DNA of 53,803 bases, counting the filler, from Malassezia furfur (lineage: Eukaryota): assembly GCA_052055015.1 (NCBI GenBank). It is 2 parts of 2 records of this genome, joined end to end, with 100 filler letters (N's around TTAATTAATTAA, not from the genome) between each part and the next. Parts side by side here need not be neighbours in the genome. Positions count along the whole stretch, not along the records: positions 1 to 26,911 come from JBQJIT010000120.1; 1 more part is not named here. The stretch is one strand, 5' to 3'. This document shows positions 12,282 to 27,011 of the stretch, piece after piece. The notes beneath the pieces are model-generated. The model saw nothing but the letters and a program-made list of their open reading frames with translations, ran no database searches and was not told the DNA's origin. The first letter of the stretch is position 1, and every line of letters starts with the position of its first letter. A program made the position numbers and the translations under genes.

Positions 12282-13188
12282 TTAAGCCTTGAGACCACCC
12301 CGCGCGCCGCCCTTGGCCTGCTGACGGGAGATCTGAGAACCGGTCGACTGCAGCGAGGCCTTGTTGGCCTTGCGCTCAGCCTTGCGCTCCTTCTTGGCAG
12401 CCTTGCGCTGCGCGAGGTCCTCCTTGCGCTGCGTGGCACGCACCTCGGGCTTCTGGTTGCGGCGCGACTGGATGTCCTGGATGCTCGCACCCACAACACC
12501 ACGCTGGTGCTTCACGGTGCGGCGCGTGCGGCGCTTGGCAGCCTCCTCAGAGATACCCTTCTTGTGCATGCGGCGGTACAGCACAGTCCAGGCAATCTTA
12601 CGGGGGTTCTTGCGCTGGTGGAAGAGCGACTCCGACTTCGACGAGATGAAGCGGAACACCTGCGCAGTTAGTATCGATTGCACGAAAAGAAACAGGCTGC
12701 AATACGCCCAGGTACGCGCAGACACATAGAAAGGGGCATACAGGCATAGACGCGGCGGTTCAAGCATCGCATCTCTTCAAGACAGAAGAGGTATACGCGA
12801 AAGCTTGTTCTTCGTCTCACCTGATCCCATTGTGCTCGACGAACGGCACAAAAACACACTGTTTCCCGTGAGAAAGGGGGTAGAGACGTGTGAGGTATCG
12901 AGGGCAGAACCACGCACGCGAGTGTGAGGTGTACTCCCACTGTGATCCACGTCCCACGTCCTTTGCCCACGTCATCATACAGCGGCGCCCCTGTATGCCA
13001 CTTTACGTCTGTGTCTGCGCCTCATTGTACCATAGGCGTATGCCAAACCCGTGCTTCGTCAGTACACACCTTGCTGTCACCACGGACGAACAGCTTGCCG
13101 TGGCCCCTGACGGTTAGCGCCCTGTTGTGTCTTGTCGTACGTACGGGTAGATCTTCTTGTTGCTGAACGAGCAGATTTCGACCTTCAT
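12282..13188 (-). CDS. RPL24: 60S ribosomal protein L24 (eL24)
   Basis: Spliced [62 protein letters not shown]. Introns 13107-13144 (38 nt) and 12660-13069 (410 nt, TACTAAC branch). Probable 5'UTR intron 13189-13271 ending immediately before the ATG. Confidence 0.96.
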
Positions 13189-13477
13189 CTGTAGATACGT
13201 CGCGTGTACCACGCGGAGTGTCAGTATCCTGTTCGCCCGCGCCGGCGCACAAGGCGCCTCGCCATACGCACCTTGATCCAGACCTTGAGGACGGAGGTGC
13301 GGAGCGCTGAGCCGCAGACCTTCGCCCTTACCACGCAAAACTGCATTCCGCACGTGATTACATAGGTAGCGGTGGAGGCCACGCGGCGAGGCAAAAATAT
13401 TGCACATACGCCACCCACACACGCGGGGCCCGAGCGCGCGCGATCTCGGCTCGCGTAGGCTGTCAGCATTCTCCATC

Positions 13478-14724
13478 GTGTCGTTCTTCCAGACTCCTAG
13501 TGCAGGTGGATGGGGCGCCCGCACGGCGACATCCACCACCGGTGGCGCAGGTACTGCGCGCGTATCCGGCGAGCAAGATATTGAGGTCGTGCCCGGACCT
13601 ACGGACACGGTCTCCAGCTTGGCCTTCTCCCCCACGGCCGACGTTTTGGCGGTGGCGAGTTGGGATGGCTACGTGCGCATCTACCGCATCGACAAAACCA
13701 ATGCTCAGCCCGTGCAGCCCTATCAGCAATACCAGCACGAGGGGCCCGTGCTTGATGTGTGCTTCAACGCCGACGGCAGCAAAGTCATCTCCGGTGGTGC
13801 CGACAAAGTCGCACGGTGCTTTGACTTGAATACCAACCAGTGCGCAGTCGTTGCGCAGCACAATGACACAATACGCTGCGTGTGCTGGATCCACGCATTC
13901 GGGGGCGCGCTTGTCACGGGCAGTTGGGACAAAACGGTCAAGCTGTGGAAAATCGACCCGCAGCCGACGCTCATTACGTCGCTCGACGTGCCGGAGCGCG
14001 TGTATTGCATGGATACCATTGGTCTGATCATCATTGTCGCGACGGCGGAGCGCAAGATTGTCGCGTTCCAGTGCAACGAGGCGACCGGCACCGCAGCGCA
14101 GGTCGCGAGCATGGACAGCCCGCTCAAGTACCAGTCGCGTTCGATTGCTGCCCTCCCCGAGGGCGATGGCTTTGCGCTGGGTGGTACCGAGGGCCGCGTT
14201 GCTGTGCATTTCTTCCACGACCCGCCAGACCCTAAGGATGGGCGCGTGTATGTACCCTCCCACTGACCTCAGGAAAAAGTTTGCCTTCCGGTGCCACCGC
14301 CGCGCCAATGCAGATCACCCCGATGTGCCGCGGAACGAGACGCACTTGTTCCCCGTCAACGCGATCAAGTTCAACTCGCAGGGCACATTTGCCACGGGTG
14401 GTGGAGACGGCTCGATTAGCTTCTGGTGCAAGGCGAGCCGCACGCGTCTGAAGAGTATGTGTTATTAGCTGACCCAGTGTTTGAAACGAAAGGATCGTCG
14501 ATGGCACCCAAGGAGGTGTTCAAGACGAACCCCAACCGCCTGCCTATCACGGCGCTGGCCTTCAACGCGGACTCGAGCATTTTCGCCTACGCACGTACGT
14601 TACGTCTACTCACACAGTCGGTTACGATTGGCACAAGGGCTACCAGAATGCGACCAACGAGGCGCACGTATTCATACACCCCGTCAACCCGGAGGACATC
14701 AAGAAGCGTCCGCCGAAGACATAG
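13478..14724 (+). CDS. RAE1: Rae1/Gle2 WD40 mRNA export factor (putative GUG start)
   Basis: [50 protein letters not shown]. Introns 14248-14272, 14455-14477 and 14595-14617. The start codon position is inferred. Confidence 0.9.
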
Positions 14725-14761
14725 ACAGGTAGATCGGGATCGGGCCGTCGTTTTTCCTCGC

Positions 14762-16819
14762 ATGGCGGCCGTGCGTGGAGCATGCCGCGGCCTGGCGCAC
14801 GCGGTGCGCGTGGGCAGGCCGCCGCTGCCTACGGGTGTGCGCTTTGTGCACACGACGCTCGTTGTGCGTGCAAAGAAGCAAGAGATCCCATTCGACCTGT
14901 TCGAAACGCGGAGTTTCTCGATCATTGCGCACATCGACCATGGCAAGTCGACGCTGGCCGACCGTCTACTGGAGCGCACGAATACCATCCCGAGCGATGG
15001 CTCGAACAAGCAAGTCCTTGACAAGCTGAAAGTCGAGCGTGAGCGCGGCATTACCGTCAAGTCGCAGGCGGTGAGTATGCTGTACAAGGACCCCGAGCGG
15101 GAGAAGCAGCACTTGCCTCCGATCCTGCTGAACCTCATTGACACACCGGGGCATGTCGACGTATGTATTCCTATTCACTCACGCAGTTTGCCTACGAGGT
15201 GCGCCGAAGCCTTTCAGTGTGCCAGTCGGCGCTCCTGGTCGTGGATGCTACGCAGGGCATCCAGGCGCAGACCATCTCGGTGTACAAAATCGCGACGCAG
15301 TGTGGCCTCACGGTAATTCCGGTGCTGAACAAGGTCGACCTGCCCGCCTCGGATCCGGAGCGCTGCATTGCACAGCTCTCCGACATGCTGGGGATGGACA
15401 TGGATGACCCCAGGCACGCGCCGCTGCTGGTGAGTGCCAAGACCGGTGAGGGCGTCGATGCGGTGCTCCATGCGCTGGTCGAGCGCACTGCGCCGCTGCC
15501 CGGCGTGGATGGCAAGTCGCTGGCGCAGCGTGAGCCGCGAGGGTTCCGTGCACTGGTGTTTGACAGCTGGTACGATCGGTACAAAGGCGTGATTGCGCTG
15601 GTGAGCATTGCTGACGGCGCCGTGCGCAAGGGTGACACCGTCGTCTCCCATCACACAGGCAAGCGGTACGAGGTACTGGACCTCGGCGTGAACAACCCCG
15701 AGGCCGTCTCGACGCCCATCCTGCGCAAGGGCCAAGTCGGCTGGATGATCACCAATATGAAAGAGACAGAAGAAGCAAACATCGGCGATACCTTTTACCG
15801 CGCGGGCGAAAAAGTCGAGGCATTGCCTGGCTTCCGTCCTGCGCTGCCTACCGTATTTGCAGGCATCTTCCCGACGGACAAATCGGACTTTCTGAAGCTG
15901 GAAGACGCCATCCAGCGCCTGGCCATCAACGACCGATCCATTTCGATGCAGCGTGAGTCCATGACCGCGCTCGGTCAGGGTTATCGCCTCGGGTTTCTTG
16001 GCACGCTGCACCTCGATGTGTTTCGGCAGCGGCTCGAGGACGAGTATGGGCACGAGATTCTCGTCACGACGCCCACCGTGCCGTTCCGCATCACCTACCG
16101 TGATGGGACGCAGGTGCTGTGCTCGAACCCCGCCGACTTCCCGGACGAGTCGATCCGCAAGACGCACGTTGCGCTGATGGAGGAGCCGTTCGTGATCGGG
16201 TCGCTGGTGTGCCCTGAGGAGTACACAGGGGCGATGATGGAGCTCTGTGCAGAACACCGTGGCGAGCAAGTCGACGTAGAGTTCTCGTCGGGCGGCGGTT
16301 CGCAGGTGCACATGCAGTACAAGCTGCCGCTTGCCGAGGTGGTGACCGACGTACGTCTGAGTACTGACCCAGTTCTTTGACAAGCTCAAGTCGCGCAGCT
16401 CGGGCTTTGCCTCGTTCGATTACGAGGACGGCGACTATGAGGCGTCTGATCTGGTCAAGCTGCGCTTCCTGGTGGCGTCGGCACCCGTGGATGCACTGGA
16501 GCTCGTGCTGCACCGTTCCAAGGCGGCCTACTTTGGGAGGTTGTGGGTGCAGCGGCTCAAGACGGCCATCCCCCGGCAACAGTTTGAGATCAAGATCCAG
16601 GCGTGCGTTGGGAGCAAGGTGCTAGCAAGTGAGACGGTGCGGGCGTATCGCAAGGACGTCACCGCGGGTCTGTACGGCGGGCACTACGAGCGCAAGCTGA
16701 AACATCTCAACAAACAAAAGGAGGGCAAGAAGCGGCTCAAGGCCATGTCCTTGGGCCGCGTCCAGGTCCCCCAGCAAGCATTCCGTGAGATTTTGGACAC
16801 ACGCGCGAAGCGAGACTAG
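14762..16819 (+). CDS. GUF1: Mitochondrial translation factor GUF1 (LepA/EF4)
   Basis: [61 protein letters not shown]. Arg-rich presequence; introns 15161-15186 and 16351-16372. Confidence 0.95.
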
Positions 16820-26911: not shown

Positions 26912-27011
26912 NNNNNNNNNNNNNNNNNNNNNNNNNNNNNNNNNNNNNNNNNNNNTTAATTAATTAANNNNNNNNNNNNNNNNNNNNNNNNNNNNNNNNN
27001 NNNNNNNNNNN
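26912..27011. other. Artificial contig-joining spacer
   Basis: 44 N + TTAATTAATTAA (26956-26967, stops in all six frames) + 44 N, exactly 100 nt. Confidence 0.97.

What the first reader, a model, noticed from the sequence alone, without database searches (positions are those of the whole stretch)
13440..13600. RAE1 has no usable AUG and appears to initiate at GUG
Seen: there is no ATG on the + strand between the RPL24 5' region (about 13270) and 13509. The first in-frame ATG is at about 14009, well inside the WD40 propeller, and the ATG at 13510 is out of frame and stops quickly. CCATC-GTG-TCG-TTC-TTC at 13478 has A at -3, resembles local start contexts (ACC-ATG-TCG, GCC-ATG-TCG) and would give an MSFF N-terminus. 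No credible intron rescues an upstream AUG. Inference: exclusive non-AUG initiation of a core mRNA export factor, possibly dosage-tuned by the downstream out-of-frame AUG; a base-call error or strain mutation is the alternative.
Basis: partly seen in the sequence, partly recalled or inferred. Interest (0 to 1): 0.7.

Follow-up and report, generated by a model that had tools for sequence, protein, structure and literature searches.

The report
RAE1 gene starts at GUG
The mRNA export factor gene RAE1/GLE2 of this Malassezia yeast has no usable AUG and carries GTG where other fungi and humans have the start ATG, and related Malassezia species carry GTG or CTG there too, so it looks like an old, conserved non-AUG start and not a sequencing error.

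Summary
The + strand has no ATG from 13041 to 13509. An in-frame TAG lies at 13367. The first in-frame ATG (14009) is codon 178, inside the WD40 propeller, and the ATG at 13510 is out of frame.

The window is Malassezia furfur-like. The gene is a complete four-exon, 391-codon RAE1/GLE2. Its residue 2 aligns with residue 2 of human RAE1 and with the MSFF N-terminus of other basidiomycetes.

DNA of three other Malassezia lineages has GTG (restricta-like, globosa-like) or CTG (sympodialis-like) at exactly this codon. All have A at -3 and no in-frame ATG after the upstream stop, which lies only 15 and 21 nt upstream in two of them. Sequence conservation begins at this codon. Protein models of nine more lineages read V or L there, and none is shown to have ATG. 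Of 20 named public Malassezia models, 19 avoid the position with truncated or idiosyncratic N-termini.

This refutes a base-call error or strain mutation and supports long-conserved near-cognate initiation. Two things are not supported: tuning by the out-of-frame AUG (not conserved) and a downstream hairpin. Initiation itself was not observed, because reads were not available.

It is a new member of a known kind, of moderate interest.

The parts
13478..13480 (+). GTG at the ancestral initiator position of RAE1/GLE2; proposed start codon
   Evidence: It aligns with M1 of basidiomycete orthologues. Residue 2 aligns with residue 2 of human RAE1 3mmy_A. The same codon is GTG, CTG, GTG in L002, L001/L003, L004.
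13472..13483 (+). Start context tccatcGTGtcg (A at -3, C at -1, T at +4)
   Evidence: A at -3 in 4 of 4 lineages (W, L001, L002, L004). TCG follows in all four.
13367..13369 (+). Nearest upstream in-frame stop (TAG); no in-frame ATG between it and 13478
13460..13462 (+). In-frame CTG at -18 with A at -3; possible extra start giving a 6-residue extension, not conserved in the other loci
13478..14247 (+). RAE1 exon 1 (codons 1-256 and two bases of codon 257)
14248..14272 (+). Intron 1, 25 nt (gtatgt...ctgac...cag)
14273..14454 (+). RAE1 exon 2
14455..14477 (+). Intron 2, 23 nt
14478..14594 (+). RAE1 exon 3
14595..14617 (+). Intron 3, 23 nt
14618..14724 (+). RAE1 exon 4 with stop TAG 14722-14724; the model gives 391 residues
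   Evidence: colinear over residues 1-391 with P0002 (331 identical) and P0194 (370 identical).
13510..13584 (+). Out-of-frame (+2) ATG and its 24-codon ORF; first AUG met by ribosomes that scan past the GTG; T at -3
   Evidence: Not conserved in position in L001, L002, L004.
13580..13582 (+). Codon 35 ATT (DIEV), a second in-frame near-cognate with G at -3 and G at +4; Met in M. yamatoensis, psittaci, japonica and equina models
14009..14011 (+). First in-frame ATG (codon 178), used as start by the truncated public M. furfur models
13186..13188 (-). ATG of the divergent RPL24 gene
13189..13271 (-). RPL24 5'UTR intron (donor GTGCGT at 13271, acceptor directly before the ATG). It places RPL24 exon 1 above 13271 and leaves at most about 140-200 nt for the RAE1 promoter and leader.
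   Evidence: donor motif, branch-like ctgac, acceptor cag. The splice is inferred from sequence, not from RNA.
13336..13413 (.). Shared promoter region with a CACGTGA motif (about 13353) and an A/T-rich TATTGCACATA block (about 13396-13408) that recur in L001 and L002
   Evidence: Seen by eye. The A/T-rich block is partly aligned. Function is inferred only.

Best explanation
This is the RAE1/GLE2 mRNA export factor gene of a Malassezia furfur-like yeast. Its full-length protein can be made only by initiation at a near-cognate codon. The most likely site is the GUG at 13478-13480, which sits exactly where the family's initiator AUG lies in other basidiomycetes and in humans.

Inferred mechanism: a short leader without any AUG lets scanning 43S complexes reach the GUG. 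The A at -3 helps Met-tRNAi pair with it. A minority of ribosomes start there and make a Met-Ser-Phe-Phe N-terminus. The rest scan on to out-of-frame AUGs and make short, useless peptides.

The non-AUG state is old. It is shared by every Malassezia lineage that could be read, as GUG or CUG, so the gene has been running on a weak start for a long time. That probably keeps RAE1 output low or ties it to start-codon stringency.

Shown here: absence of an AUG, conservation of the near-cognate codon and its -3 A, and coding constraint from that codon onward. Inferred: that initiation happens there, its efficiency, and its purpose.
For: (1) No in-frame ATG lies between TAG 13367 and codon 178, and there is no + strand ATG at all from 13041 to 13509.

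(2) The region from 13478 on is RAE1. Pfam WD40 repeats start at residue 37. The best hits are Malassezia GLE2. Human RAE1 3mmy_A aligns residues 2-254 to 2-253, E 7.9e-51. The four-exon model is colinear with orthologues over 391 residues.

(3) Orthologous DNA has cccaagCTGtcg in L001/L003, ccgatcGTGtcg in L002 and cctatcGTGtcg in L004. None has an in-frame ATG after the upstream stop, which lies at -207, -15 and -21. Their first in-frame ATGs lie at +363, +300 and +537, inside the propeller.

(4) The nucleotide alignment becomes conserved exactly at the codon (NTGTCGTTCTTYCAGAC), while upstream sequence hardly aligns.

(5) Codons 41-185 have pN 0.05-0.11 against pS 0.57-0.87. So the stretch before the first in-frame ATG is coding, and the lineages are diverged to synonymous saturation.

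(6) Proteins that read through the position show V in 5 and L in 8 Malassezia lineages. ATG is shown in 0. The two kinds of model that print M there correspond to CTG (P0002 against P0131 and L001) and GTG (P0003 against P0127 and L002).

(7) P0180 is a spliced, hence mRNA-derived, M. globosa-like ORF seen on 27 contigs. Its N-terminus is colinear with genomic L004 from -18, directly after the TGA at -21, so no intron brings in an upstream AUG there.

(8) Other basidiomycetes have M at this column: P0015, P0016, P0018, P0019, P0029 and P0036 start MSFF, and P0017 and P0020 start MAFF.

(9) The Malassezia sequences form one clade (94/96 support), and all 7 lineages in the tree have V or L.
Against: No transcript ends, ribosome footprints or N-terminal peptides were seen. 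Reads were not available for this window and no whole genome is held.

In the window an in-frame CTG at -18 also has A at -3 and could start as well or instead. Codon 35 is another in-frame near-cognate in a G...G context.

T at -2 is found in 0 of 15 crude local ATG contexts.

No stable or conserved hairpin follows the codon: z = -0.34, covariation term -0.75 kcal/mol.

L001 has out-of-frame ATGs at -128 and -77 that would be inhibitory if they lie in the leader.

For seven of the eight L lineages the codon itself was not seen, and only CTG or TTG would be near-cognate.

Some species have open frames upstream, with annotated or possible upstream starts (P0005, P0192, P0210/P0218/P0219). So exclusive non-AUG use is not shown for every species. 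Those extensions are not conserved with one another.
Confidence: 0.78

Rival explanations
1. Initiation is non-AUG, but the main site in M. furfur is a different in-frame near-cognate. One candidate is CUG 13460 (-18), giving a six-residue extension. The other is AUU 13580 (codon 35), giving a protein without the N-terminal tail.
For: CTG 13460 has A at -3, and CUG is usually the best near-cognate (general knowledge, recalled). Codon 35 has G at -3 and G at +4 and is Met in the M. yamatoensis, psittaci, japonica and equina models. Solved RAE1 chains that begin near residue 31 (7byf_A, 4owr_A) align from query residue 33-34, so a tail-less propeller can fold.
Against: Neither site is conserved as a near-cognate in register across the four DNA loci in the way position 1 is. 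-18 is CTG only in the window. The tail SFFQT..GWG.R is conserved in all lineages, with pN below pS in codons 2-40, so it is translated. The stops at -15 and -21 in L002 and L004 leave almost no room upstream.
Confidence: 0.12
2. A hidden upstream exon, or trans-splicing, supplies an AUG that is spliced onto the conserved frame.
For: Public pipelines built such models, for example M. yamatoensis P0194 from the equivalent of ATG 13040 and M. sympodialis P0131. Malassezia introns are tiny and easy to miss.
Against: No + strand ATG exists for 438 nt upstream, and the region above 13189 is occupied by RPL24 on the other strand. There is no AG directly before the GTG in the window, and the nearest AGs in the four loci lie in different frames. 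The upstream exons in the public models differ in every species. Spliced P0180 is colinear with the genome up to the in-frame stop. The manually curated M. sympodialis model dropped the upstream exon (P0002 against P0131).
Confidence: 0.04
3. The GTG is a sequencing error or a private mutation, or the gene is decaying and only the truncated product from ATG 14009 is made.
For: Three public M. furfur models start at codon 178 (P0112, P0121, P0195).
Against: The same non-AUG codon is present in three other lineages at DNA level. Codons 41-185 are under strong purifying selection. A product starting at codon 178 would lack the WD40 repeats found at residues 37-177. The frame is intact over 391 codons.
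Confidence: 0.02

Closest known systems
RAE1/Gle2 WD40 mRNA export factor (human RAE1, PDB 3MMY; S. cerevisiae GLE2; S. pombe rae1)
   Same: Same protein family and same N-terminal register. Residues 2-254 align to residues 2-253 of human RAE1, E 7.9e-51. There are WD40 repeats and named GLE2 orthologues.
   Different: The other basidiomycete models read here begin with M, and human RAE1 has residue 2 aligned with residue 2 here. Here, and in all Malassezia lineages read, the codon at that position is GTG or CTG.
Cellular genes translated only from a non-AUG codon, such as vertebrate eIF4G2/DAP5/NAT1 (GUG); named from memory, no call
   Same: A conserved near-cognate in a good context is the only way to make the full protein, and no in-frame AUG is available.
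   Different: Different gene, kingdom and presumably purpose. Here the codon switches between GUG and CUG among species. Initiation has not been shown experimentally.
Fungal near-cognate starts that add an isoform: yeast ALA1 and GRS1, Cryptococcus LeuRS (ACG) and ArgRS (AUU), fungal 6-phosphogluconate dehydrogenase, N. crassa cpc-1
   Same: Near-cognate initiation by scanning ribosomes in fungi, dependent on context and conserved between species. Sources: PMC7049704 passages; PMC5487733 passages; PMC3245939, PMC3306390 and PMC7214817 from search listings only.
   Different: In those cases the non-AUG start adds an N-terminal extension or targeting signal on top of a normal AUG-initiated product. 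Here there is no AUG-initiated full-length product at all.

Membership tests
RAE1/Gle2 mRNA export factor | Seven-bladed WD40 propeller detectable by sequence | tested here: met
   Pfam WD40 PF00400 E 7.9e-24 with 3 stretches in exon 1, and ANAPC4_WD40 above its cutoff. Exon 1 aligns to RAE1 structures 3mmy_A and 7vpg_A.
RAE1/Gle2 mRNA export factor | Orthology: best hits are named GLE2/RAE1, colinear over the full length | tested here: met
   Top hits are Malassezia 'RNA export factor gle2' at 79-89% identity. The 391-residue model aligns end to end with P0002 and P0015. It groups with the Malassezia clade.
RAE1/Gle2 mRNA export factor | Binding of the GLEBS motif of Nup98/Nup116 | not tested
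   No complex prediction or residue check was made.
Non-AUG (near-cognate) initiated cellular gene | Conserved coding sequence extends upstream of the first in-frame AUG, with no in-frame AUG after the upstream stop | tested here: met
   177 constrained codons precede the first in-frame ATG. All four DNA loci lack an in-frame ATG after the stop.
Non-AUG (near-cognate) initiated cellular gene | A near-cognate codon conserved in register between species | tested here: met
   GTG, CTG, GTG, GTG in W, L001/L003, L002, L004. V or L in 13 of 13 lineages whose models read through the position.
Non-AUG (near-cognate) initiated cellular gene | Favourable context (purine at -3) | tested here: met
   A at -3 in 4 of 4 loci. 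+4 is T, not G. -2 T is unusual locally.
Non-AUG (near-cognate) initiated cellular gene | Leader free of AUGs so that scanning ribosomes reach the codon | tested here: inconclusive
   The window has none for 438 nt. L002 has none within 170 nt. L001 has ATGs at -128 and -77, and L004 at -138. Transcription start sites are unknown.
Non-AUG (near-cognate) initiated cellular gene | Direct evidence of initiation (footprints, N-terminal peptide, reporter) | not testable with these tools
The held supplement of PMC5389616 does not mention GLE2.

The most novel reading that the evidence does not exclude
The weak start is not a tolerated accident but is kept by selection. Across the whole genus Malassezia the RAE1/GLE2 start codon has moved between GUG and CUG but never back to AUG, although one base change would do it and synonymous sites are saturated. 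On this reading, the output of a core mRNA export factor is deliberately throttled, or coupled to the cell's start-codon stringency (eIF1/eIF5 balance, stress). It would be the first genus-wide, exclusively non-AUG-initiated housekeeping gene described in fungi.
Probability: 0.3. Interest if true: 0.7.

Novelty: new member of a known kind. Interest (0 to 1): 0.55.

Why it matters
Cellular genes that depend entirely on a non-AUG start are few. The fungal cases in the papers read here add an isoform to an AUG-initiated product.

A conserved, exclusive GUG/CUG start on an mRNA export factor would give a natural reporter for start-codon stringency in basidiomycete yeasts. It also raises the question of why RAE1 dosage should be limited.

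Practically, it explains why public annotations of this gene are wrong in nearly every Malassezia genome. Of 20 named models, 19 are truncated, fused or given invented N-termini. Annotation pipelines need a rule for such cases.

Tried and rejected
- **Raw reads and RNA evidence.** No whole genome is held.
- **Downstream hairpin that could pause scanning.** The window folds no better than shuffles (z -0.34, 69 of 200 shuffles as good). The four-species consensus has a covariation term of only -0.75 kcal/mol. Rejected as a conserved feature.
- **Upstream exon with an AUG.** Rejected for the reasons given under rivals.
- **Split-codon rescue.** An exon ending in AT with the G after the intron would need ATGT or ATGC in the genome, and no ATG exists there. 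A...TG would need an AG|TG acceptor upstream of 13478, and none is present (read).
- **Frameshift from ATG 13510.** Rejected, because that ATG is not conserved and it would skip the conserved SFFQT tail.
- **Local Kozak consensus.** Built from the first ATG of 15 Pfam-supported ORFs, with starts unverified.
- **Earlier findings of the scan.** Three look-ups, all empty.
- **Literature.** Searches were Malassezia + non-AUG (6 papers, none on this by title or abstract), Gle2 + non-AUG (2), Malassezia + near-cognate (1) and Rae1 + non-AUG + mRNA export (4 hits, 3 listed). None reports this, judged from listings only.
- **The M. sympodialis annotation paper PMC5389616.** Its main text has no occurrence of non-canonical, CTG, initiation or alternative start, and its one held supplement has no GLE2.
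- **N-terminal-only protein search.** It added one new cluster.

Full report
**What is in the window**

The stretch 13370-14266 is one open frame on the + strand. From 13478 it encodes a WD40 protein. Pfam WD40 scores E 7.9e-24, with repeats from residue 37. The best database hits are Malassezia 'RNA export factor gle2' proteins at 79-89% identity. A 175-residue Malassezia furfur model (P0112) is 100% identical over its overlap, so the window is M. furfur or a very close relative.

With three introns of 25, 23 and 23 nt, the gene gives 391 residues and stops at TAG 14722-14724. It is colinear from residue 1 to the end with orthologues: 331 of 391 residues are identical to M. sympodialis P0002 and 370 of 391 to M. 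yamatoensis P0194. Such tiny introns fit the mean intron size of 30 bp reported for the curated M. sympodialis annotation (PMC5389616, Table 2 passage).

- On the + strand there is no ATG between 13040 and 13510.
- The in-frame stop upstream is TAG 13367.
- The first in-frame ATG is 14009, which is codon 178.
- The ATG at 13510 is in frame +2 and opens a 24-codon ORF ending at TGA 13582-13584.
- The codon at 13478 is GTG in the context tccatcGTGtcg.

The ATG-free gap of 470 nt is the fifth longest of 686 on this strand. By itself that is only mildly unusual.

RPL24 lies divergently. Its ATG is at 13186-13188 on the minus strand and is preceded by what looks like a 5'UTR intron (13189-13271; donor GTGCGT, acceptor directly before the ATG). 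RAE1's promoter and leader therefore have to fit into roughly 13340-13477.

**The GTG sits at the family's initiator position**

In the protein alignment the residue encoded at 13478 falls in the column of the initiator Met of Thecaphora and Moesziomyces. The N-termini of P0016, P0018, P0019, P0029 and P0036 begin MSFF, and those of P0017 and P0020 begin MAFF. Against human RAE1 (3mmy_A), residue 2 aligns with residue 2. The alignment tool prints M for the window's first codon because of its own start-codon convention. That is not evidence.

**Orthologous DNA**

One metagenome scan returned four loci. By identity to named proteins they are M. sympodialis-like (L001 and L003, identical here), M. 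restricta-like (L002) and M. globosa-like (L004). The table gives what each locus shows.

| Locus | Start context | In-frame stop upstream | First in-frame ATG downstream |
|---|---|---|---|
| L001/L003 | cccaagCTGtcg | -207 | +363 |
| L002 | ccgatcGTGtcg | -15 | +300 |
| L004 | cctatcGTGtcg | -21 | +537 |

A is at -3 in all four lineages. None has an in-frame ATG between the upstream stop and this codon. The first in-frame ATGs all fall inside the propeller.

Position 1 is the only place where a near-cognate is kept in register in all four. The CTG at -9 of L002 and L004 has C at -3, and it is absent from the window and from L001.

The nucleotide alignment is close to unalignable upstream and becomes conserved exactly at the codon (NTGTCGTTCTTYCAGAC).

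**Coding constraint and age**

Between the four lineages, codons 41-185 show pN 0.05-0.11 against pS 0.57-0.87. Codons 2-40 show pN 0.05-0.29 against pS 0.36-0.82. So the part upstream of the first in-frame ATG is translated and constrained, the N-terminal tail included. The lineages are diverged to saturation at silent sites, so the non-AUG codon is old.

**Census at protein level**

I read every Malassezia-like model or ORF that runs through the position.

- **V, five lineages:** the window; M. yamatoensis P0194; unnamed P0157/P0163; P0127 (= L002); P0012/P0164/P0180 (= L004).
- **L, eight lineages:** M. sympodialis P0131 (= L001); M. vespertilionis P0005; M. sp. CBS 17886 P0192; unnamed P0001, P0007 and P0013; P0022/P0236/P0238; P0210/P0218/P0219.

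These lineages are not independent, and some are close relatives. For seven of the eight L lineages the codon itself was not seen.

Two groups print M at the position.

- P0002, the curated M. sympodialis model. The older model of the same strain reads L there (P0131), and L001 has CTG. My reading, from recall and not from a call, is that a complete CDS beginning with CTG is translated as M under the standard table. The paper describes manual curation with RNA-seq and peptide tracks but does not mention non-AUG starts (PMC5389616, passages).
- P0003/P0021/P0141/P0226. These are metagenome-style ORF calls identical or nearly identical to L002, which has GTG. JGI's copy (P0127) prints V.

There are 20 named Malassezia models from 17 species. 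They are P0112, P0121, P0195, P0122, P0133, P0006, P0132, P0179, P0134, P0128, P0130, P0004, P0196, P0193, P0194, P0005, P0220, P0192, P0131 and P0002. Only P0002 begins M-SFF.

- Five start at the internal Met of codon 178 (M. furfur three times, M. obtusa, M. pachydermatis).
- Two start at MEVTPG (codon 35).
- M. brasiliensis uses the out-of-frame ATG equivalent to 13510 plus an invented intron.
- M. yamatoensis uses the equivalent of ATG 13040 inside RPL24.
- M. obtusa is fused to the downstream GUF1.

This disorder is what one expects if no pipeline can find an AUG.

**Transcript-level hint**

P0180 is a 399-residue M. globosa-like ORF with all three introns of L004 removed, so it comes from RNA. 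It is recorded on 27 contigs, the longest 1456 nt. Its first residues (MRQLPIV) are colinear with L004 from the GTG at -18, directly after the TGA at -21. So in that species the mature mRNA carries the genomic sequence, in-frame stop included, right up to the start. No upstream coding exon is spliced on.

**Phylogeny**

In a maximum-likelihood tree of 18 sequences, the seven Malassezia sequences form a clade (94/96 support) and all seven carry V or L. The other Ustilaginomycotina carry M, except one of two Violaceomyces palustris paralogues (P0014), which reads L after an annotated extension. M. sympodialis (CTG) groups with M. globosa and M. restricta (GTG). So the first base changed at least twice within the genus without returning to A.

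**How it most likely works**

This part is inferred from the scanning model of initiation. Published work reports that fungi use near-cognate codons and that context matters (PMC7049704 passages; PMC5487733 passages).

- A short AUG-free leader delivers scanning ribosomes to the GUG.
- The A at -3 favours recognition by Met-tRNAi.
- A fraction of ribosomes initiate and produce Met-Ser-Phe-Phe...
- The rest continue to the first AUG, which is out of frame in all four loci: +32, +226, +130 and +130, opening ORFs of 24, 28, 61 and 61 codons.

A conserved A/T-rich block about 65-85 nt upstream (13396-13408 in the window) could be a TATA-like element. It would put the transcription start some 45-55 nt before the GTG and downstream of L001's upstream ATGs. 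This is speculation.

**Weak points**

- Nobody has seen the ribosome start here. Reads could not be obtained.
- In M. furfur the CTG at -18 (A at -3) and the ATT of codon 35 (G at -3, G at +4) are further in-frame candidates.
- Codon 35 is Met in four species' models.
- No conserved downstream structure was found.
- The local context comparison is crude.
- In some species an upstream in-frame AUG may exist: P0005 and P0192 carry annotated extensions, and P0210, P0218 and P0219 have long open frames. These extensions share no conservation.

**Comparison with what is known**

As a protein this is an ordinary RAE1/Gle2. As a translation unit it belongs with the small set of cellular genes made only from a near-cognate codon; eIF4G2/DAP5 with GUG is the textbook case, which I recall and did not check here. 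The fungal cases in the papers I read add isoforms to AUG-initiated proteins: aminoacyl-tRNA synthetases, cpc-1 and 6-phosphogluconate dehydrogenase.

Four searches found no paper linking RAE1/GLE2 or Malassezia to non-AUG initiation (judged from listings). One public record (P0002) appears to encode the CTG start silently.

**Verdict**

The main interpretation is supported by comparative evidence, and the error or mutation alternative is refuted. This is a new member of a known kind. The genus-wide conservation and the GUG/CUG switching make it more interesting than a single odd gene model.

Noticed in passing
window 14248-14272, 14455-14477, 14595-14617: RAE1 has three introns of only 25, 23 and 23 nt (GTATGT/GTACGT ... 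CTGAC/CTCAC ... CAG). The M. restricta-like orthologue L002 has none. The M. globosa-like L004 has three, of 53-73 nt.
   Followed up: partly
window 13189-13271 (minus strand): RPL24 seems to have a 5'UTR intron whose acceptor abuts the ATG. Donor-like GTACGT/GTATGT and the leader motif CCTCCGTCYTCAAGG recur at the same place in L001 and L002 (seen by eye).
   Followed up: partly
window 14722-14764: The GUF1 start ATG (14762) lies only 37 nt after the RAE1 stop codon. The public M. obtusa model P0122 fuses a truncated GLE2 to GUF1 (751 aa).
   Followed up: partly
window 13580-13584: The stop (TGA 13582-13584) of the out-of-frame 24-codon ORF overlaps codon 35 (ATT 13580-13582) of RAE1. Codon 35 is ATG in the M. 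yamatoensis, psittaci, japonica and equina models. A possible termination-reinitiation arrangement was not tested.
   Followed up: no
window about 13336-13362; L001 about 2340-2368; L002 about 2278-2306: A conserved AAAACTNCANTTCNNCACGTGA block (E-box-like CACGTG) lies in the RPL24-RAE1 intergenic region of three species. It is probably a shared promoter element.
   Followed up: no
window 26912-26955 and 26968-27011: Two runs of 44 N each (88 N in all), lying at the end of the PAT1-like ORF and just before the Spc25-like ORF.
   Followed up: no
P0014 and P0018 (Violaceomyces palustris): Two GLE2 paralogues in one species. One starts MSFF. The other reads ...PN-L-SFF after an annotated extension, so a Leu codon stands at the initiator position outside Malassezia as well.
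   Followed up: partly
window 13481-13494 and L001, L002, L004 2504-2517: The first five codons after the start (TCG TTC TTY CAG ACN) are almost identical at silent sites in four lineages whose silent sites are otherwise saturated. This could reflect codon bias or a nucleotide-level constraint near the start.
   Followed up: no
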